From a phage: 64,000 bases of DNA. The stretch is from assembly GCA_024672275.1 (NCBI GenBank), contig GCA_024672275.1_4536.1. One strand, 5' to 3'. Every line of letters starts with the position of its first letter. Within the stretch, counting starts at the first letter, position 1. Shown piece after piece: positions 33,957 through 51,628 of the stretch. Under the pieces are notes generated by a model. That model was not told where the DNA came from and made no database searches. It was given only the letters and a program-made list of their open reading frames with translations. The translations under genes and the position numbers were made by a program.

Positions 33957-34031
33957 GGCCCTGTAGCTCAATGGGAGAGCTGTCGGCTCATAACCGATAG
34001 GTAGCTGGATCGAAACCAGCCAGGGCCACCA
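33957..34031 (+). tRNA. tRNA with CAU anticodon (Met or lysidine-Ile), CCA encoded
   Basis: Hand-folded: 7-bp acceptor ggccctg/cagggcc, anticodon loop ctCATaa, T-loop atcgaaa. Confidence 0.7.
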
Positions 34032-34033
34032 AC

Positions 34034-34108
34034 GTCTTTATGGTGTAATGGATAGCACAGGAGTCTTCTAAACTCTTAGTCAAGGTTCGATTCCTTGTAA
34101 AGACACCA
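34034..34108 (+). tRNA. tRNA-Arg (anticodon UCU)
   Basis: Acceptor gtcttta/taaagac, loop ctTCTaa, T-arm caagg-ttcgatt-ccttg, CCA encoded. Confidence 0.7.
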
Positions 34109-34304
34109 GAACATTTTAACATGAATTAGCTCAAGTGATTTGAACCCACTACTGATCATGGTGGCAGAGAATGAGGCAAGTATGTCAGACATTATAAACA
34201 AAGGCCACGGTTATATTAGAAGACATAAATGCTCGAAGAGCACCGTTCGTTGAGAACGGTGGTTGGTGGAGTCACCATTCATGGTAAAATGTTTTAAAAA
34301 ACTA

Positions 34305-34334
34305 TTGACAACTAACATTATTTTATGTTAGATT
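34305..34334 (+). promoter_or_regulatory. sigma70-like promoter (TTGACA-18-TAGATT), ACTATTGACAA family
   Basis: About 8 nt upstream of tRNA-Ser 5' end. Confidence 0.5.
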
Positions 34335-34342
34335 ATAAGTAT

Positions 34343-34433
34343 GGAAGGGCAAATCGACGTGGCGACGAAAACGGTCTTGAAAACCGCCGAGCTTGAAAGA
34401 GCCTTGGGAGTTCGACTCTCCCTCCTTCCGCCA
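34343..34433 (+). tRNA. tRNA-Ser (anticodon UGA), class II
   Basis: Long variable arm, loop ctTGAaa, T-arm gggag-ttcgact-ctccc, discriminator G, CCA encoded. Confidence 0.7.
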
Positions 34434-34437
34434 GATT

Positions 34438-34523
34438 GGTAGATTGGTGAAATGGTAGCCACGACAGTTTGCTAAACTGTAGTCGGAAACGGCGTGTAGG
34501 TTCGAGTCCTACATCTACCGCCA
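34438..34523 (+). tRNA. tRNA-Ser (anticodon GCU), class II
   Basis: Acceptor ggtagat/atctacc, stem acagt/actgt, loop ttGCTaa, long variable arm, discriminator G. Confidence 0.7.
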
Positions 34524-34653
34524 AGTTCTTTTTAATATAGCTTACTTTAATAGAGTAAACTTTCGGCAGATGGCCCCCACCATCTTACCGATACCTCATA
34601 GTTAGTGGTGCGAACACTGGCTATTTTAAAAAGAATTTAAATATTAGTATTTA

Positions 34654-34741
34654 GGTGAGTTAATTCCGTAGGGGTAGCGGGGCAGACTGTAAATCTGTTA
34701 TCATTGCGATTCGGGTGGTTCGACTCCATCACTCACCACCA
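34654..34741 (+). tRNA. tRNA-Tyr (anticodon GUA), class II
   Basis: Acceptor ggtgagt/actcacc, loop ctGTAaa, long variable arm, CCA encoded. Confidence 0.65.
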
Positions 34742-34747
34742 AATTAA

Positions 34748-34833
34748 GATGAGTTGGCTGAACGGTTTAAGCGGCGGACTGTTAATCCGTGTTCGAAAGA
34801 ACGATATAGGTTCAAATCCTATACTCATCGCCA
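34748..34833 (+). tRNA. unusual tRNA: Asn-type anticodon arm (GUU) in a long-variable-arm (class II-like) scaffold, discriminator G
   Basis: 86 nt with CCA; stem gcgga/tccgt, loop ctGTTaa; 15-nt variable region gttc-gaaa-gaac. Confidence 0.55.
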
Positions 34834-34840
34834 GAATTAT

Positions 34841-34917
34841 GGACTTGTAGAGTTAAGGTAAACCCCCAGTCGCCAAGAGGCTTCTGGAATTGCAGGTATC
34901 GAATCCTGCCGAGTCCC
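34841..34917 (+). pseudogene. degenerate tRNA-like element
   Basis: Acceptor ggacttg/cgagtcc and T-arm-like gcagg...cctgc (8-nt loop) but no regular anticodon arm; no CCA. Confidence 0.3.
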
Positions 34918-34923
34918 AGCTTT

Positions 34924-34998
34924 GCTCCTATAGTATAATGGCTATTACAACGGTTTTGTAATCCGTGGATCTCTGTTCGATTCAGAGTGGGAGCACCA
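34924..34998 (+). tRNA. tRNA-Thr (anticodon UGU)
   Basis: Acceptor gctccta/tgggagc with one GU, D-arm gtataatggctattac, loop ttTGTaa, T-arm ctctg-ttcgatt-cagag, CCA. Confidence 0.6.
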
Positions 34999-35271
34999 AT
35001 ACAACATTAAGGGCACTGTGATTGATCGTCGTATCCTGTGCACAAGGTCTGCTCGAAAGACAGTGTTCTTAGTATTGTGTTGATCACACAAAGAGTTACC
35101 TGAAACTTGACCGGAGTAGGGTTGGATGGGGCAAAAGAAGAAGCGGCTCTCCCATCGACAGCAACGAAGAATAATATTTGACTTTGGTTTTGTATTATTT
35201 TAAGTTAGCTTACCGAACGTAGGGCTAGTCACCCAATGGGATACTCGTCACTGTCCCACTCAATAAAACTA

Positions 35272-35301
35272 TTGACAACCAATAGTAAAATGTAGTATAG
35301 T
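35272..35301 (+). promoter_or_regulatory. sigma70-like promoter (TTGACA-18-TATAGT), ACTATTGACAA family
   Basis: About 11 nt upstream of tRNA-Gly. Confidence 0.55.
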
Positions 35302-35312
35302 AAAGATGTAGG

Positions 35313-35386
35313 GCGTTCTTGGTGTAGCGGTAGCATTCCGTCCTTCCAAGTCGGCGGCACGAGTTCGATCCTCGTAGAACGCTCCA
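35313..35386 (+). tRNA. tRNA-Gly (anticodon UCC)
   Basis: Acceptor gcgttct/agaacgc, loop ctTCCaa, T-arm acgag-ttcgatc-ctcgt, discriminator U, CCA. Confidence 0.65.
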
Positions 35387-35484
35387 AATTATTTAATAAA
35401 GGGTTGCCAGAAAACTTTCTCTTTTACTCATGGTTTTCTCCTTCTCTCACACCTCTTCTGGTTGCCCTTCATTAAATGATTTAT

Positions 35485-35560
35485 TGGTTTGTAGTGTAGT
35501 CCGGTAGCACACGACACTTTGACTGTCGTAGGTTTGGTTCAAATCCAGACAGACCAGCCA
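35485..35560 (+). tRNA. tRNA-Gln (anticodon UUG)
   Basis: U1-A72 start, stem cgaca/tgtcg, loop ctTTGac, discriminator G, CCA. Confidence 0.7.
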
Positions 35561-35565
35561 TATAA

Positions 35566-35642
35566 CGGAATTTAGCTCAGTTTGGTAGAGCATACGCTTT
35601 GGGAGCGTAGGGTCGCAGGTTCGAATCCTGCAATTCCGACCA
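35566..35642 (+). tRNA. tRNA-Pro (anticodon UGG)
   Basis: C1-G72, D-arm gctcagtttggtagagc, stem tacgc/gcgta, loop ttTGGga, T-arm gcagg-ttcgaat-cctgc, CCA. Confidence 0.75.
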
Positions 35643-35648
35643 ATCAAA

Positions 35649-46193: not shown

Positions 46194-46824
46194 TATTTAC
46201 CAACAAATAGAAGCATACGAAAATGCCATCTACTTAAATATAGGTGGCTTCCTTCAAGAATTAGTGGGGTTGCCAGTCTATGTTATGGATAAGCCATTCA
46301 TTAAACCGGATACTCCTTACCTAGCACTACGTATTATCACTTCCAGCGATTCTGGAGGTTGGTCTTACCGAAGCTCTATTCAAAATGATATGTATTCCTA
46401 CGAGATGGATAATACCTACGAGATTGAACTTGTAGCCTATCGTGGAAGACCTACCACTTTGATGAGCTATGTTCTGGCTGCTCTCCGTGGTGCAGAGGAA
46501 TTAAAATACAAACATCTCTATTCTAAAGGTCTTGGTTTTTTAGGAGCCTCTAATATAGCTCAAGCCAATACGATTGTAGACGGAGATAAGACTGAATTAA
46601 GAGCGCGTATGGTTATGACGTTCAACACTCGTATGAGTATTGAAGATATTGCTACTACACCAATAGAAGCAATCAACATGCACATCCGTTCATTCAGAGA
46701 TAGTTACAATGATCCTATCCCTTTAGATTTAATTCTAAACAGGGTTTATGCAATTACTTTGGTTCCAGGCGAATACTCGTCAGTTAATCAAAATGGATCA
46801 TTATTTAACAACCCTACCGAATAA
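46165..46824 (+). CDS. hypothetical structural protein
   Basis: 219 aa. Confidence 0.5.
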   Translation: MEQKEETLANIYQQIEAYENAIYLNIGGFLQELVGLPVYVMDKPFIKPDTPYLALRIITSSDSGGWSYRSSIQNDMYSYEMDNTYEIELVAYRGRPTTLMSYVLAALRGAEELKYKHLYSKGLGFLGASNIAQANTIVDGDKTELRARMVMTFNTRMSIEDIATTPIEAINMHIRSFRDSYNDPIPLDLILNRVYAITLVPGEYSSVNQNGSLFNNPTE

Positions 46825-46858
46825 ACTCATTGGAATTAAGTTTCTAACAGGAGCATAA

Positions 46859-48232
46859 ATGGCAACTTTTCGTGAAAAGGTAGCAACCGTAACTTTACTG
46901 TATGGTGCTACATCAATTCGTGAAACCCAGTTCGATATTCCCCTGATCCTTACAGGTCAGAACGTAACTGGCGAAGCGATTCAATATTACTCTTCTTCCG
47001 ATGCACTTTTGGAAGCAGGTTATGGATTAAATGATCCAGCGTATATTATGGCAGTCAAACTGTTTAACGGTTTGTTCCCACCAGATCAAGTCATGGTTGG
47101 TAAGCGTGAAGTTACAAACTTTACTCTAACTCCAATCGTAGAAGATAGTGCAACTTACACAATTACCATCAAAAATGGTACCAAGAAAAAAGAATTTAAA
47201 TTCATTGCTGATGACACTGCAACTGCACAAGAGATTGTAGTTGGTCTGACTGAAATGATCAATGCAGATCTTGTTTATGGCCCACTGTTTACAGTAGCTA
47301 ACAACGGCGCTGCAATGACTTTCACTCCAGTAGAAGGTAAGTTTGGTTCTATTGACAGCACAGGTTTCACTCAAGAAACTGTCTATGCTAATGCTATTAC
47401 GGAAGATATCGCTGCTCTGCATGATATTGATAGTAGCTGGTTCTGGACCCTTTCAGATTCCCATGAAACAGAAGATGTTCTAGCTTTGGCTGCATGGGTA
47501 GAAGAGAATGATAAAGTTTACTTCTTCTCTAGCTCTGAACCTGGGATTAAAACGAAAGCAGAAGATAACGTTCTGGAACGACTGAATGACCTCGGTTATA
47601 ATAACACTTGCTTTGCTTTGTGGATGACCGATGCAGATTCTGTATTCCCAGAAGCAGCAGTTGTTGGTGCAATCTGTTCTCGTCAACCTGGTTTAACTAC
47701 TCTTCACGGTAAAACACTGGTAGGTGTAGAGATCGAGAAACTGGATCAGACTTCGGAAAATAATATTGTTCAACAGAACGGTAACATCTATCGTAAAGAG
47801 CATGGAACTCTGTTCTATCGTGATGGATTGATGGTTAGCGGTTTCTTTGTTGACTATGTTGTTCATGCTTTGTGGTTTAAAGCTCGCACAGAAGAATCAC
47901 TGTTTACACTGTTTAAACAACAGTCTATGCTGGGTGGTGGTGTTCGTGCTACTTCAAACGGTCTGGCTTTGATTCGACAAGCTGTTCTGGCTAACCCGAT
48001 CCAAGTAGGTATCCTCAACGGTTCCATCGCTAACGAAGTTGTTACTTCTGAAGAGACTGGTTTGCGTGTCGATCTGAAACCTATTGTTTATATTCCTTCT
48101 CGTGCTGATATGACTGATGCGCAAATCAATGCTCGTCTGGTCGATGGGATGAAGATTGAATATGTTTACGCTGGCTTCTTCCATTACGTTAAAGTTCAGG
48201 TCAACGTCCTGACTAACCGTACTGCAAACTAA
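46859..48232 (+). CDS. tail sheath protein
   Basis: 457 aa, high-expression codons, followed by tube-sized gene, chaperones and tape measure. Confidence 0.55.
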   Translation: MATFREKVATVTLLYGATSIRETQFDIPLILTGQNVTGEAIQYYSSSDALLEAGYGLNDPAYIMAVKLFNGLFPPDQVMVGKREVTNFTLTPIVEDSATYTITIKNGTKKKEFKFIADDTATAQEIVVGLTEMINADLVYGPLFTVANNGAAMTFTPVEGKFGSIDSTGFTQETVYANAITEDIAALHDIDSSWFWTLSDSHETEDVLALAAWVEENDKVYFFSSSEPGIKTKAEDNVLERLNDLGYNNTCFALWMTDADSVFPEAAVVGAICSRQPGLTTLHGKTLVGVEIEKLDQTSENNIVQQNGNIYRKEHGTLFYRDGLMVSGFFVDYVVHALWFKARTEESLFTLFKQQSMLGGGVRATSNGLALIRQAVLANPIQVGILNGSIANEVVTSEETGLRVDLKPIVYIPSRADMTDAQINARLVDGMKIEYVYAGFFHYVKVQVNVLTNRTAN

Positions 48233-48235
48233 TAC

Positions 48236-48258
48236 GGCGGGGGTTAAGCCCCCGTTAT
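48236..48258 (+). terminator. hairpin terminator/attenuator after sheath gene
   Basis: 6-bp GC stem cggggg/cccccg, weak U tail. Confidence 0.45.
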
Positions 48259-48278
48259 CAAAATAAAGAGGATCTATA

Positions 48279-48758
48279 ATGGATAAAATGCTTACTGGCG
48301 TAATGGCCTACGACCCATCTCAAGTTATCCTTTCATTAGGTGGTTGGGAACCGTGGGGTTTTGCGGCTGATACTAAAATCGTTATTGCTAAATCTAACGA
48401 TATTATTAACCCTTATTCAGGGACTGATGGTGACGTTTCACTAGCTTTGAGTCGTAACCGTTTGGGAACACTCACAATGTCTTTGCAACGCACATCTCCA
48501 GCTAACGAAGTACTTGCAACATATGCACAAACAATGTATTCTACTCGTCAAGTAGCATTCAGCGTTTACTTGGAAGACCCACGTGGCTATTACATTAGCA
48601 CGATTGGATGGATTCAAAGTCAGCCTGAAGATACTATTGGCGAAATGATTACAGAGAACCAATGGGTTATTGGTCTTAAAGATGCAAGCCTTCTGCGTAA
48701 TGAAGTTGGTGTAGGTTTGAGCACCCTTAACTCAATCTCTGCTCTGACAATTCAATAA
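48279..48758 (+). CDS. tail tube protein
   Basis: 159 aa directly after sheath; high-expression codons. Confidence 0.5.
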   Translation: MDKMLTGVMAYDPSQVILSLGGWEPWGFAADTKIVIAKSNDIINPYSGTDGDVSLALSRNRLGTLTMSLQRTSPANEVLATYAQTMYSTRQVAFSVYLEDPRGYYISTIGWIQSQPEDTIGEMITENQWVIGLKDASLLRNEVGVGLSTLNSISALTIQ

Positions 48759-48763
48759 TAAAT

Positions 48764-48788
48764 AAAGGGCAGAAATGCCCTTTTTATC
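48764..48788 (+). terminator. rho-independent terminator after tube gene
   Basis: Stem agggca/tgccct with GAAA loop followed by tttttatc. Confidence 0.7.
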
Positions 48789-48803
48789 ATTAGAGAGGAA
48801 AAT

Positions 48804-49286
48804 ATGTCACAAGAACAAGATAACACAATTCAAAAATATGCTCGACCAGAAGAAGTAGTTGAGATTCCGTTAGATGGAAACAGATCTGTTACTTTCCGTA
48901 TTATGAAGTGGAGTCCATCTAAAGTGTTTGACAGGATTCCAGAATTGGGTAGTGTTCTGGTTGTTCCTATGACTATGTACAGCACAGCAACAATGTCCGC
49001 AGACGAAGACCTTGAGTCACGTATTGCTATGGCACTGATCCAACTTTTTGCAGGTTTGGAAGAAAAGAATTTAACTGTCTTTTTGCGTAAAATTTTAGAT
49101 GAGGTTTATACTCAAGACGGTTATAACGTTGCAGAAAATTTTGACGAATTATTTATGGCTCACCCAGAACTAGTGTTAGATCTTACTGCTAAAGTTCTGG
49201 AGGTAAACTACGGCCCTTTTTTCAAACGAGGTTTCGGAAAACTGTTCACACAGCTTCAGGCGATGACGAGTTTAGCAGCAAATTAA
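48804..49286 (+). CDS. tail assembly chaperone
   Basis: 160 aa between tube and tape measure; contains slippery heptamer near 3' end. Confidence 0.5.
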   Translation: MSQEQDNTIQKYARPEEVVEIPLDGNRSVTFRIMKWSPSKVFDRIPELGSVLVVPMTMYSTATMSADEDLESRIAMALIQLFAGLEEKNLTVFLRKILDEVYTQDGYNVAENFDELFMAHPELVLDLTAKVLEVNYGPFFKRGFGKLFTQLQAMTSLAAN

Positions 49287-49333
49287 CACCTGCGATTGAA
49301 CATGCTATCGACACAGCAACGAAAACCCTTACT

Positions 49334-49552
49334 TTGAAGTGGTATGAGGTTATTCTTTGCAAAGTCGTTAAAGATACCTCGGAAACACTGAAAACATTGG
49401 ATAACTACGGTGTAGATTATCTTTTAAAACTATATGAGTATTTAACATACGAAGAGTATGTTGAAGCCATGTATGTTAAAGACACTTCAATAAAGAGAAA
49501 ACATCAAAACCAGACAAATAAAATGTCAGATTTGTTTAAGAAACTTGTTTAA
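49334..49552 (+). CDS. tail assembly chaperone -1 frame extension (track ORF; -1 frame open from about 49205)
   Basis: ORF in -1 frame relative to 48804..49286, ending just before tape measure gene. Confidence 0.4.
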   Translation: MKWYEVILCKVVKDTSETLKTLDNYGVDYLLKLYEYLTYEEYVEAMYVKDTSIKRKHQNQTNKMSDLFKKLV

Positions 49553-49572
49553 TCCAACACGAGGAACATACT

Positions 49573-51561
49573 TTGTTAGAAATTAACGCCTCCAAAATTA
49601 GTAACGTGGTTACGTTTAAGGTGGACAAGAACAGTCTCAAGGAAGCAAAAGATGCCGTGTTGAGTGTTCAGAAGTTTGCAAATAAAATGCAACCCACTAT
49701 GAACATGACCAAGTTTAGACAACAAATGAAAGAGATTGAGCGTGAACTTAAGAAAGCTCAAACTCAAAGTCAAAAACCTATGCGAGCACCTACTCCCGCT
49801 GGAGCGGGTGCTCCTGTAGGTGGATCTGGCAGACCAAGAACTCCTAAAACCCCGCAAGGAAGAGAAGAAGAAAAAGCTCGTAAAGCGGCTGAACGCGAAG
49901 CTAAAGCAGCAGCACGTAGGGAAGACTTAGGTAATCTTCGTTTGCAAAACTTTAACTACCGAGCAAAAGCATTTAGTAAAGCCAGTCCTGGCGCTATGCA
50001 AGAAGCTAGAGACGTTATGGGTAAAGCTGTAGAGCAATACAAAAAGGGTGAAATAACTCTTCAACGTATGAACCAAGCTCTTGCTCACCAGTTAGATGCC
50101 TTACGCAGATCTCATCGTGAAAAGAATGCTGAAATAGAAGACGAGGTTCGCGGTCGTCGCCGTATTCGTAGAGAGCTAGAAGCAGAAGCTAAAATGCGTA
50201 TACGTATGCGAAACCGTGAACTTAGAGATATAGAACGCAACCGTAAGCGTGAATTAGCTCAACAAAAACGTGATCGTGATCGTCGATATGGACAATTAAA
50301 AGAAGGTGCAGCAGGTCTTAATCCACGTATGATTGCATCCTCTTTGATAGGTGCTGGGCTGTTTGCAGGTGGTTCTGTAGTTGGTAACACTTTGATGAAT
50401 ACTAACGAAAGAATTAAAATGGTTAGTCGCGGTGCTGAAAACGTCCAAACAAATGCTAACTCTATTTTAACAATGACAGCATGGGGTGAACAAAACGGTG
50501 TAGACTCGGCAAATATTATTAAAGCAATAGATAACATTAAAGACGTTCGTGAACGTCTAGGTAATACCATGATGAACACCAAATGGAACGCAAAAGAAGG
50601 GAAATGGAAAGGTGGTGATAACGGTATTACTGATATTATGAATGCTTTTGGTTGGAACCCCGATCAAATAAAACACTTGCAAAATGACCCGTTAGCTTTT
50701 ATCCAAGCCACTGTTAATGAAGGCGAACGTCGAGGCATGAACTCTGCTCAAATCGGGCGACTTCTTGAAAACCTTGGGGATGACCTTATGCACTACCAAC
50801 GCATGTTTAGTAAAAATGGCGAAGGTTACAATGAAACATTGAAAATGCTTCAAAGAACAGGTGCAACATTAACTCAAGAACAAATAGATGCTTCTAAAGA
50901 GTTTACTCGTTTTGCTGCAACAGTTCAGCTTGTAGGTCAAGGTATGCAGAACCACTTCTTAGAGGGTTTTGTGAAAGCGTTACCTAAAGATGATTCTTGG
51001 TTGGATAACGTTAAAGTGCTAGATCAGTTTGCCAAAGATTTAGGTGAAGAACTCGGTAAGACAACAGTTCAATTAGGAGGTTTTGCTAAAGAATTGGGAG
51101 ATGGTTTCGGATCTTTTACCAATTGGCTTAAAGAAACATTCCCAGATACATTCGGAGACAACACAGATCCTAATAAATCTATGGCACAAAAAGCATACGA
51201 GGCAACGCAAAGTGGAGACAGCAATCCTGTAGCAGATTGGTTGTATAATTTAACAGGTATTGATACACAAGATATTGGTCGTATGTGGAGAGGAGAACAA
51301 ACAAGGACACGTGCTTTTGGATTTGGTAATCCTCTTGAAGATTTACGTGAATCAGCCTATACACCTAACGTAAGTTTGGCTCGTAATCAACCTGTTGTTG
51401 AGAATACGGTAGCAATACCAAGTGATCTTATCAAAGTTACGATCAGTCCTTCTTCCGAGTTTGGAAATATTCTTGATGCAAGAATTCAAAATAGCGGAAA
51501 TAGCATTTTCCAACGTTTATCTCTTTCAACTCTAAGTGGACAATCTAACACTGGTGGTTAA
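49573..51561 (+). CDS. tail tape measure protein
   Basis: 662 aa, long helical/charged repeats, position after chaperones. Confidence 0.6.
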   Translation: MLEINASKISNVVTFKVDKNSLKEAKDAVLSVQKFANKMQPTMNMTKFRQQMKEIERELKKAQTQSQKPMRAPTPAGAGAPVGGSGRPRTPKTPQGREEEKARKAAEREAKAAARREDLGNLRLQNFNYRAKAFSKASPGAMQEARDVMGKAVEQYKKGEITLQRMNQALAHQLDALRRSHREKNAEIEDEVRGRRRIRRELEAEAKMRIRMRNRELRDIERNRKRELAQQKRDRDRRYGQLKEGAAGLNPRMIASSLIGAGLFAGGSVVGNTLMNTNERIKMVSRGAENVQTNANSILTMTAWGEQNGVDSANIIKAIDNIKDVRERLGNTMMNTKWNAKEGKWKGGDNGITDIMNAFGWNPDQIKHLQNDPLAFIQATVNEGERRGMNSAQIGRLLENLGDDLMHYQRMFSKNGEGYNETLKMLQRTGATLTQEQIDASKEFTRFAATVQLVGQGMQNHFLEGFVKALPKDDSWLDNVKVLDQFAKDLGEELGKTTVQLGGFAKELGDGFGSFTNWLKETFPDTFGDNTDPNKSMAQKAYEATQSGDSNPVADWLYNLTGIDTQDIGRMWRGEQTRTRAFGFGNPLEDLRESAYTPNVSLARNQPVVENTVAIPSDLIKVTISPSSEFGNILDARIQNSGNSIFQRLSLSTLSGQSNTGG

Positions 51562-51568
51562 TAAAATA

Positions 51569-51590
51569 CCTCGCTTCGGCGGGGTTTTTT
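51569..51590 (+). terminator. rho-independent terminator after tape measure gene
   Basis: Stem cctcgc/gcgggg with TTCG loop followed by tttttt. Confidence 0.75.
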
Positions 51591-51598
51591 CGTTTCCC

Positions 51599-51628
51599 TT
51601 GACACGAAGTTTCTATATGTGTTACAAT
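51599..51628 (+). promoter_or_regulatory. sigma70-like promoter (TTGACA-18-TACAAT)
   Basis: Immediately after terminator, upstream of baseplate genes. Confidence 0.55.

What the first reader, a model, noticed from the sequence alone, without database searches (positions are those of the whole stretch)
49205..49552. Candidate -1 programmed frameshift in the tail assembly chaperone
Near the end of the 48804..49286 ORF the sequence c-ctt-ttt-tca reads T-TTT-TTC in the zero frame (49217-49223), a slippery heptamer, and the -1 frame is open from about 49205 through 49552. This is the conserved position for the chaperone frameshift between tube and tape measure genes.
Basis: partly seen in the sequence, partly recalled or inferred. 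Interest (0 to 1): 0.45.

Follow-up and report, generated by a model that had tools for sequence, protein, structure and literature searches.

The report
Tail chaperone -1 frameshift site
This E. coli phage almost certainly makes a longer second form of its tail assembly chaperone when ribosomes slip back one base on a run of six T's; the trick is well known in tailed phages, but public records of this phage genus leave it unannotated.

Summary
The window is a Phapecoctavirus, 99.7% identical to Escherichia phage anhysbys. The 160-aa ORF 48804-49286 is a tail assembly chaperone (Pfam PF21822). It lies between the tube gene and the tape measure gene. Its zero frame reads GGC CCT TTT TTC, so T TTT TTC (49217-49223) is an in-phase slippery heptamer, overlapped by a second one, C CCT TTT (49214-49220). 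The -1 frame is open from 49193 to the stop at 49550-49552. It fills a 286-bp gap that public records leave unannotated. A slip would give a 249-aa fusion.

The site is not a chance match.
- Of 70 in-phase heptamers in the window, only these two are followed by a long -1 ORF.
- TTTTTTC sits at the same place in all 20 homologues checked that have a six-T run.
- One distant relative uses G GGA AAG a few codons downstream instead.
- The extension evolves as protein only in the -1 frame (pN/pS 0.32), and it has no conserved start codon or Shine-Dalgarno.
- Synonymous variation is suppressed only around the site.
- No downstream RNA structure is predicted.

GenBank already annotates the frameshift at the homologous site in Citrobacter phage Mordin. 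This is therefore a new member of a known kind, of low interest beyond annotation.

The parts
48804..49286 (+). Short form of the tail assembly chaperone (TAC-N, lambda gpG-like), 160 aa, zero frame
   Evidence: ORF list and translation. Pfam PF21822 Phage_TAC_15, E 1.3e-23. PHROG 3840 'tail assembly chaperone', E 2.8e-55. RefSeq NC_052656 annotates the identical ORF as tail assembly chaperone.
49199..49203 (+). Internal Shine-Dalgarno-like GGAGG, 10 nt upstream of C CCT TTT and 13 nt upstream of T TTT TTC; candidate upstream stimulator (inferred)
   Evidence: Sequence. The Glu133 codon GAG inside it is invariant in 11 of 11 Stephanstirmvirinae-like genes, one of only six invariant codons among 36 invariant degenerate residues. 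GGAGG, GAGGTG or GGAG is present in most homologues, including the Ounavirinae, but absent in Ro1, CB7, ChuuTotoro and 4L372D. Sharma et al. 2014 searched for stimulatory SD-like sequences 6-17 nt upstream of the motif.
49214..49220 (+). First in-phase slippery heptamer, C CCT TTT
   Evidence: It is present only in the Stephanstirmvirinae-like sequences; other lineages have TGT or AGT before the T run. C_CC.U_UU.U is among the motifs with more than 0.1% frameshifting without stimulators in E. coli (PMC4066793).
49217..49223 (+). Main slippery heptamer, T TTT TTC (P-site TTT 49218-20, A-site TTC 49221-23)
   Evidence: Invariant in 20 of 20 homologues that have a six-T run. The codons CCT, TTT and TTC show no synonymous variation, whereas all six other invariant Phe columns vary between TTC and TTT. 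The H_HH.U_UU.Y class is among the most efficient -1 motifs in E. coli (PMC4066793).
49223..49552 (+). The -1 frame extension (TAC-C, lambda gpT-like part): 109 codons plus TAA. The long form is join(48804..49223,49223..49552), 249 aa.
   Evidence: Translations. pN/pS is 0.32 in this frame against 1.0 and 1.8 in the other two, with 0 stops against 50 and 55. There is no ATG, GTG or TTG before codon 38 of the extension and no SD before any candidate start. PHROG 16039 and 10409, both of unknown function. tblastn with the fusion matches the rV5-like phages in two pieces.
49193..49286 (+). Overlap in which both the zero frame and the -1 frame are open (94 nt)
48279..48758 (+). Tail tube gene, upstream neighbour
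   Evidence: PHROG 280; weak Pfam PF11681. Annotated as tail tube in OM362897. The rV5 counterpart gp52 was identified as the tube protein by mass spectrometry (PMC3606486).
48764..48783 (+). Terminator-like hairpin with a T tail between the tube and chaperone genes
   Evidence: A terminator is annotated at the same place in wV8 and Mordin.
49573..51561 (+). Tape measure protein gene (TTG start), downstream neighbour
   Evidence: PHROG 16051, E 0. RefSeq annotation.

Best explanation
The site is a programmed -1 ribosomal frameshift of the lambda G/GT type in the tail assembly chaperone gene of a Phapecoctavirus. Most ribosomes translate 48804-49286 and release the 160-aa short chaperone. A minority slip back one base. 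This happens when tRNA-Phe occupies the P-site (TTT) and A-site (TTC) of T TTT TTC (49217-49223), or one codon earlier on C CCT TTT. Both tRNAs re-pair in the -1 frame, and translation continues to the TAA at 49550-49552. The product is a 249-aa protein: residues 1-140 of the chaperone fused to a 109-aa C-terminal part (...VNYGPFF|QTRFRK...). By analogy with lambda gpG/gpGT and P2 gpE/E+E', the C-terminal part would tether the chaperone to the tape measure protein, while the abundant short form coats it during tail tube assembly. The fixed slip rate would set the ratio of the two forms. Shown here: the anatomy of the site, its conservation, the coding nature of the extension, and the lack of an independent start. 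Inferred: that slippage occurs, its rate, a stimulatory role for the GGAGG 10-13 nt upstream, and the division of labour between the two products.
For: 1. Identity and position. The ORF is a TAC by Pfam and PHROG and lies between the tube and tape measure genes.
2. Phase. The heptamer is in phase and the -1 ORF is 109 codons long, unique among the 70 in-phase heptamers in the window.
3. Conservation. TTTTTTC is at the homologous position in every homologue examined that has a six-T run: 6 Stephanstirmvirinae, 6 Vequintavirinae including rV5, 4 metagenomic contigs at 40-63% protein identity, Aeromonas phage 4L372D, and the Ounavirinae wV8 and Mordin. In all of them the -1 frame is open up to the tape measure gene. 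The preceding residue changes (Pro CCT, Cys TGT, Ser AGT), but its third base is always T.
4. Replacement. Rheinheimera phage Barba18A lacks the T run and instead has G GGA AAG a few codons downstream, with a homologous -1 extension.
5. Synonymous sites. In 11 genes, 36 columns have an invariant degenerate amino acid. Only six of these have an invariant codon, and all six lie at residues 133-144: GAG, CCT, TTT, TTC, GGT, TTC. That is 6 of 10 such columns in residues 132-144 against 0 of 26 elsewhere (hand-computed Fisher p about 1e-4).
6. Coding signal. The extension has pN/pS 0.32 and variable columns 49/32/75 by codon position in the -1 frame only.
7. No independent start. The conserved protein sequence begins upstream of any start codon. 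Candidate starts are not conserved and lack an SD; in Hena1 the first is at codon 80 of 121.
8. Motif efficiency. Both heptamers belong to classes that frameshift efficiently in E. coli (PMC4066793).
9. Precedent. GenBank annotates a joined CDS at the homologous site in Mordin. Moogle was published with a 'translational frameshift' in this gene (PMC4319497). PMC12846349 argues for a conserved -1 frameshift with a GTTTTT motif in related families.
Against: There is no experimental evidence for the fusion protein in this phage or its close relatives; chaperones are absent from virions, so virion proteomics is uninformative. No downstream stimulatory structure is predicted: z = -0.65 for 107 nt, a consensus fold of only -5.7 kcal/mol, and z from -1.9 to +1.6 with no shared hairpin in 20 homologues. 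The efficiency is therefore unknown and may be low. The SD-like element is missing in some homologues. Part of the nucleotide invariance downstream of the site (GGT TTC) can be explained by dual coding alone. None of the Phapecoctavirus records inspected annotates the long form. No protein covering more than 64% of the fusion was found in a database of 5.8 billion proteins, which reflects gene callers rather than biology.
Confidence: 0.88

Rival explanations
1. The same 249-aa product is made by transcriptional slippage. RNA polymerase would add one extra U on the T6 run, so that a fraction of mRNAs carries U7 and encodes the fusion in one frame.
For: The site is a homopolymer. A U7 transcript would encode exactly the same protein (GPFF|QTR) as a -1 ribosomal slip, so conservation of the T run, the open -1 frame and the coding signal fit both mechanisms. 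One Felixounavirus record, CL1, actually carries T7 and so a single fused 213-aa ORF, which shows the run is prone to changes in length at some level. Sharma et al. link slippage to homopolymeric heptamers.
Against: From general knowledge, six T's is short for efficient polymerase slippage, and the known programmed cases use runs of about 9. The base before the run is always T-compatible in the heptamer phase, and the run is exactly T6 followed by C, so that X XXY YYZ holds in 20 of 20 homologues. Barba18A substitutes G GGA AAG, a classic ribosomal heptamer with no long homopolymer. The invariant SD-like GAG at dnaX-like spacing makes sense only for a ribosomal mechanism.
Confidence: 0.06
2. 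The downstream ORF is a separate small gene, as many records annotate it. It would be translated from its own start (TTG 49334 in this window) or by reinitiation after the TAA at 49284-49286, with no frameshift.
For: Many GenBank records annotate a 72-85-aa 'hypothetical protein' here, for example phi92 gp133, and PHROG 16039 models only that part.
Against: In the window there is no ATG, GTG or TTG in the -1 frame between 49193 and 49334, and no SD precedes 49334. The conserved residues PAIEHAIDTATKTLT and the FFQTRFRK motif lie upstream of that TTG. The annotated starts differ between relatives (extension codons 29, 36, 38, 47, 64, 78, 84; a CTG in rV5). Hena1 has no start before codon 80 of 121. 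This model does not explain the suppression of synonymous change at the heptamer.
Confidence: 0.03
3. The T run simply encodes Pro-Phe-Phe, the open -1 frame is fortuitous, and no long form is made.
For: The Phe-Phe residues are conserved in the short protein, and the window is AT-rich enough for T runs to occur.
Against: The site is unique among the 70 heptamers in the window. The -1 frame shows purifying selection over 84 codons, with 0 stops against 50-55 in the other frames. Codon invariance is restricted to this site. A different heptamer has replaced it in Barba18A.
Confidence: 0.01

Closest known systems
Tape-measure chaperone frameshift of Ounavirinae (Citrobacter phages Moogle and Mordin, and Felix O1-like phages)
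   Same: The chaperone is homologous: tblastn from the rV5 fusion reaches Felixounavirus CL1. The cassette is the same, ctGGAGGcaaacttcggaagTTTTTTC, with GGAGG 13 nt upstream, the same protein context (L-E-x-N-[YF]-G-x-F-F), a -1 extension that ends at the tape measure start, and a terminator between the tube and chaperone genes. GenBank KT363872 annotates the joined CDS, and PMC4319497 mentions the frameshift.
   Different: The subfamily is different and the protein identity is low. The residue before the run is Ser (AGT) rather than Pro (CCT), so the second overlapping heptamer C CCT TTT is absent. The short and long forms are smaller (132-133 and about 212 aa).
Conserved -1 frameshift (GTTTTT motif) proposed for the chaperones of Vandenendeviridae (Pakpunavirus) and Andersonviridae (PMC12846349, 2025)
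   Same: [quoted passage not shown] That paper places Stephanstirmvirinae and Vequintavirinae as relatives of these families.
   Different: That paper does not analyse Stephanstirmvirinae or Vequintavirinae chaperones. In the window the base before the run is C (CCCTTTTTTC), not G.
Lambda gpG/gpGT and the general tail assembly chaperone frameshift of long-tailed phages (Xu, Hendrix and Duda 2004; P2 E/E+E', Mu gp41/42); cited from my own knowledge
   Same: The position between the major tail or tube gene and the tape measure gene is the same. So are the -1 slip on a heptamer near the end of the short ORF, the C-terminally extended minor product, and the lack of an obvious downstream RNA structure, as in lambda.
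   Different: No sequence similarity to lambda G/T was detected here; the Pfam family is PF21822. The heptamer is T TTT TTC rather than G GGA AAG, although Barba18A uses the latter. This phage is a contractile-tailed virus of about 150 kb.
E. coli dnaX -1 frameshift; cited from my own knowledge, plus PMC4066793
   Same: An SD-like sequence lies 10-13 nt upstream of a homopolymeric heptamer.
   Different: dnaX also needs a strong downstream hairpin, and its shifted product is shorter. Here no hairpin is predicted and the shifted product is longer.

Membership tests
Tail assembly chaperone with programmed -1 frameshift (lambda G/GT type) | The gene lies between the major tail or tube gene and the tape measure gene | tested here: met
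   The order is sheath 46859-48232, tube 48279-48758, chaperone 48804-49286, tape measure 49573-51561.
Tail assembly chaperone with programmed -1 frameshift (lambda G/GT type) | The short product belongs to a recognised chaperone family | tested here: met
   Pfam PF21822 Phage_TAC_15, 84.3 bits against a cutoff of 22; PHROG 3840.
Tail assembly chaperone with programmed -1 frameshift (lambda G/GT type) | [quoted passage not shown] | tested here: met
   T TTT TTC at 49217-49223 and C CCT TTT at 49214-49220, inside the overlap 49193-49286, 21 codons before the zero-frame stop.
Tail assembly chaperone with programmed -1 frameshift (lambda G/GT type) | The downstream -1 ORF has no translation start of its own and encodes conserved protein | tested here: met
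   No conserved start or SD. pN/pS 0.32 in the -1 frame only.
Tail assembly chaperone with programmed -1 frameshift (lambda G/GT type) | The slip site and frame arrangement are conserved in divergent homologues | tested here: met
   20 of 20 homologues with a six-T run keep TTTTTTC, and 1 uses G GGA AAG. Synonymous variation is suppressed at the site.
Tail assembly chaperone with programmed -1 frameshift (lambda G/GT type) | Both the short product and the frameshifted long product are made, at a fixed ratio | not testable with these tools
   This needs a western blot, mass spectrometry or a reporter assay. No published data were found for Phapecoctavirus, phi92 or rV5.
Tail assembly chaperone with programmed -1 frameshift (lambda G/GT type) | Both products are required for tail assembly and are absent from virions; the C-terminal part binds the tape measure protein | not testable with these tools
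   This needs genetics and biochemistry. The structure model of the fusion was unusable (pLDDT 40).
dnaX-type frameshift cassette (upstream SD plus downstream hairpin) | A stimulatory SD-like sequence upstream at an effective spacing | tested here: inconclusive
   GGAGG at 49199-49203 lies 10 and 13 nt upstream of the two heptamers. GAG is invariant in 11 of 11 close homologues, but the element is absent in several distant ones.
dnaX-type frameshift cassette (upstream SD plus downstream hairpin) | A stable, conserved downstream stem-loop or pseudoknot | tested here: not met
   z = -0.65. Consensus fold -5.7 kcal/mol with essentially no covariation. No shared hairpin in 20 homologues. Rfam finds only tRNAs in the window.

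The most novel reading that the evidence does not exclude
In Stephanstirmvirinae the site would be a composite ten-base slippery tract (C CCT TTT TTC, two overlapping heptamers). An internal Shine-Dalgarno lies at dnaX-like spacing and there is no downstream structure. Slippage could then occur at either of two successive translocation steps, or partly through polymerase slippage on the T6 run. The long:short ratio might be set well above the few percent typical of lambda G/GT.
Probability: 0.1. Interest if true: 0.35.

Novelty: new member of a known kind. Interest (0 to 1): 0.2.

Why it matters
The main value is for annotation. The Phapecoctavirus and Justusliebigvirus records inspected, and most rV5-like records, leave about 290 bp blank or call a spurious small 'hypothetical protein' with inconsistent starts. 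The correct model is join(48804..49223,49223..49552), which encodes a 249-aa long chaperone. The comparison also shows that one frameshift cassette (SD-like, then N-[YF]-G-x-F-F on TTTTTTC) is shared by Ounavirinae, Vequintavirinae, Stephanstirmvirinae and an Aeromonas phage, and has been replaced by a lambda-type heptamer in one lineage. These phages are widely used as therapeutic candidates, so correct structural-gene models have some practical use. The finding does not change what is understood about frameshifting or tail assembly.

Tried and rejected
- Downstream stimulatory RNA structure. I folded the 107 nt after the site, ran RNAalifold on 7 homologues, and folded 60 nt in each of 20 homologues with shuffles. 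Nothing exceeded background.
- Rfam scan of the whole window. It found only tRNAs and no frameshift element.
- AlphaFold2 on the 249-aa fusion without an alignment. Mean pLDDT was 40, which is unusable, so I ran no fold search.
- Sequence search of the PDB with the fusion. No hit at E up to 1.
- Pfam on the extension alone. Only a sub-threshold Dodecin match (E 0.054), treated as noise.
- A search of 5.8 billion proteins for an annotated fused product. All 41 hits are short forms of 158-175 aa.
- Literature searches for a described frameshift in Phapecoctavirus, phi92, phAPEC8 or rV5. None was found; the rV5 proteomics paper does not mention one.
- Stop-codon readthrough and +1 or -2 shifts. 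I rejected these from my own reading of the sequence. The zero frame hits TGA 16 codons after the TAA, and the +1 frame is closed; it is open only at 49276-49299.

Full report
**What the window is.** Megablast of 46800-51600 against the phage collection gives 99.7% identity over the full length to Escherichia phage anhysbys (Phapecoctavirus, Stephanstirmvirinae). It gives 97-99% identity to about 65 other records. In the RefSeq record the gene order on the + strand is major head, neck and completion genes, tail sheath, 'virion structural protein' (the tube), tail assembly chaperone, then a gap of about 286 bp with no feature, then the tape measure protein. A second record has the same layout and the same gap. 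In window coordinates these are:
- sheath 46859-48232
- tube 48279-48758
- chaperone 48804-49286
- tape measure 49573-51561

The assignments are supported by Pfam PF21822 Phage_TAC_15 for the chaperone (E 1.3e-23). PHROG families for sheath, chaperone and tape measure protein support them too.

**Check of the observation.** The zero frame of 48804-49286 reads GGC CCT TTT TTC AAA CGA at 49212-49229. A second in-phase heptamer, C CCT TTT (49214-49220), overlaps it. The -1 frame is open from 49193 to the TAA at 49550-49552. The +1 frame is closed. A slip on either heptamer gives the same protein: 140 zero-frame residues ending ...VNYGPFF, joined to 109 residues starting QTRFRK, 249 aa in all.

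To test against chance, I scanned 70 crude ORFs of at least 100 aa in the window. They hold 70 in-phase heptamers. The -1 frame after them stays open for a median of 5 codons (95th percentile 27). Only the two heptamers at this site exceed 50 codons, with 110 and 109.

**Comparative evidence.** I took the homologous locus from sequences at decreasing similarity:
- six other Stephanstirmvirinae at 72-75% nucleotide identity or less: phi92, phiWec190, phiWec181, KP2025, phi1_175008 and 05F01
- six Vequintavirinae at about 24-34% protein identity: rV5, Hena1, Ro1, SSE121, CB7 and ChuuTotoro
- four metagenomic contigs whose chaperones are 40-63% identical
- Aeromonas phage 4L372D
- two Ounavirinae, wV8 and Mordin

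All 20 have TTTTTTC at the same place in the motif N-[YF]-[GKAT]-x-F-F (H-Y-Y-K-S-F-F in 4L372D). All have a -1 ORF of about 90-126 codons that stops at or just before the tape measure gene. The residue before the run differs between lineages (Pro CCT, Cys TGT, Ser AGT), but its third base is always T, as the heptamer requires.

Rheinheimera phage Barba18A has lost the T run (…HYGCLTSGKSF…). It carries G GGA AAG, the lambda G/GT heptamer, a few codons downstream. Its -1 extension is recognisably homologous to the others. Replacement of one slippery heptamer by another is hard to explain unless the frameshift itself is under selection.

**The extension is coding and has no start of its own.** I compared the seven Stephanstirmvirinae sequences over 84 ungapped codons beyond the zero-frame stop. 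The -1 frame has mean pS 0.73 and pN 0.24 (ratio 0.32) and no stops. The other two frames have ratios of 1.0 and 1.8, with 50 and 55 stops. Variable columns by codon position number 49, 32 and 75.

In the window the first ATG, GTG or TTG in this frame is the TTG at 49334, codon 38 of the extension. No Shine-Dalgarno precedes it, and the conserved residues (FFQTRFRK…PAIEHAIDTATKTLT) lie upstream of it. Candidate starts in the other genomes sit at different codons. Annotators have accordingly chosen different starts, including a CTG in rV5. In Hena1 the first candidate is at codon 80 of 121.

**Nucleotide-level selection at the site.** In a codon alignment of 11 Stephanstirmvirinae-like chaperone genes, 36 columns have an invariant amino acid with more than one codon. 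Only six of these have an invariant codon. All six lie at residues 133-144: Glu133 GAG, Pro138 CCT, Phe139 TTT, Phe140 TTC, Gly143 GGT and Phe144 TTC. The six other invariant Phe columns all vary between TTT and TTC. That is 6 of 10 in residues 132-144 against 0 of 26 elsewhere, a hand-computed Fisher probability of about 1e-4.

CCT, TTT and TTC are the heptamers. GGT and TTC lie in the dual-coding overlap. GAG is the core of an SD-like GGAGG (49199-49203), which reads GAGGTG in phi92-like phages. It lies 10 nt upstream of C CCT TTT and 13 nt upstream of T TTT TTC. This is within the 6-17 nt range in which Sharma et al. 2014 searched for stimulatory SD-like sequences. The same GGAGG at 13 nt is present in rV5 and the Ounavirinae. 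It is absent in Ro1, CB7, ChuuTotoro and 4L372D. I therefore treat it as a likely but unproven stimulator.

**No downstream structure.** The 107 nt after the site fold no better than shuffles (z = -0.65). The consensus fold of seven homologues is -5.7 kcal/mol, with essentially no covariation. Folding the 60 nt after the site in 20 homologues gives z from -1.9 to +1.6 and no shared hairpin. Rfam finds nothing here. From my own knowledge, this resembles lambda G/GT, which works without a defined stimulator. According to Sharma et al. 2014, H_HH.U_UU.Y motifs, which include both heptamers here, are among the most efficient in E. coli and give more than 0.1% frameshifting without any stimulator.

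**Most likely mechanism.** A minority of ribosomes slip by -1 on C CCU UUU UUC, with tRNA-Phe (and tRNA-Pro for the first heptamer) re-pairing in the new frame. They then continue to 49552 and make a 249-aa long form beside the abundant 160-aa short form. The roles of the two forms are inferred from the lambda and P2 systems and were not tested here: the short form would coat the tape measure protein, and the C-terminal part of the long form would tether to it.

The main rival that gives the same protein is polymerase slippage on the T6 run. I rate it unlikely for three reasons: the run is short, the heptamer phase and the SD-like element are conserved, and Barba18A uses a non-homopolymeric heptamer. 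Sequence alone cannot exclude it. Independent initiation of the downstream ORF and pure chance are both contradicted.

**Comparison with what is known.** The phenomenon is a textbook one. The homologous site is already annotated as a joined CDS in Citrobacter phage Mordin, and the frameshift is mentioned in the Moogle genome announcement (PMC4319497). A 2025 paper argues for the same conserved -1 frameshift, with a GTTTTT motif, in Vandenendeviridae and Andersonviridae. It names Stephanstirmvirinae and Vequintavirinae as related clades but does not analyse their chaperones (PMC12846349).

I found no paper describing the frameshift for Phapecoctavirus, phi92 or rV5. None of the inspected records of these groups annotates the long form. 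No fused protein turned up in a very large protein database.

**Verdict.** This is a well-supported but experimentally unconfirmed new member of a known kind, and its value is mainly for annotation.

**What led nowhere.** The single-sequence AlphaFold model of the fusion was unusable (pLDDT 40). The PDB sequence search was empty. Pfam has no family for the extension.

Noticed in passing
L020 (Escherichia phage CL1, OK040806) 1230-1236: In this Felixounavirus record the run is T7 rather than T6, so the record carries one continuous 213-aa 'tape measure chaperone' ORF equal to the fused long form (junction ..ANFGSFF|RSKHFQK..). The other Felixounavirus records listed align over 641 of the 642 bases, which fits T6, and wV8 was confirmed to have T6. 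The CL1 run is either a homopolymer sequencing error or a natural long-form-only variant.
   Followed up: partly
L021 (Rheinheimera phage Barba18A, NC_048189) 1224-1230: This distant homologue has no T run at the homologous spot. It has a lambda-type G GGA AAG heptamer a few codons downstream, with a homologous -1 extension open to 1511. An HNH endonuclease gene on the opposite strand follows, instead of the tape measure gene directly.
   Followed up: partly
window 48764-48783 (+ T tail to about 48786): A terminator-like hairpin (AAAGGGCAGAAATGCCCTTT followed by T's) lies between the tube and chaperone genes. A terminator is annotated at the same position in wV8 and Mordin. It may lower transcription of the chaperone and tape measure genes relative to the tube gene.
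   Followed up: no
window 33957-35879: A cluster of 10 tRNA genes (Met, Arg, Ser, Asn, Thr, Gly, Gln, Pro-UGG, Ile, Met) was found by ARAGORN. Rfam adds an eleventh, weak tRNA match at 34654-34738 (39 bits) that ARAGORN does not call. There is no phage tRNA-Phe, so the slip would rely on host tRNA-Phe.
   Followed up: no
L009 (rV5, NC_011041) 1051-1419: RefSeq rV5 gp050 is annotated as starting at a CTG codon, three bases upstream of the slippery heptamer and in the -1 frame. This is an annotation artefact that in effect marks the unrecognised frameshift extension.
   Followed up: partly
window 49573: The tape measure gene starts with TTG, with a GAGG Shine-Dalgarno 9 nt upstream. It is followed by a strong terminator-like hairpin at 51568-51585 and a near-consensus sigma-70-like promoter at 51599-51628.
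   Followed up: no
public records matched: Records named after Campylobacter, Klebsiella (ZCKP1), Acinetobacter (ABPW7) and Shigella hosts are 98-99% identical to this E. coli phage across the tail module. Their host labels may reflect broad host range or contamination and mislabelling.
   Followed up: no
window 49230-49235 (GGT TTC, residues 143-144): These two codons are invariant in 11 of 11 close homologues, and the string GGTTTCG recurs 8-17 nt after the heptamer in most distant homologues. Dual coding (G-F in the zero frame, R-F-R in the -1 frame) may explain it. A role as a spacer or an mRNA-ribosome contact element cannot be excluded.
   Followed up: partly
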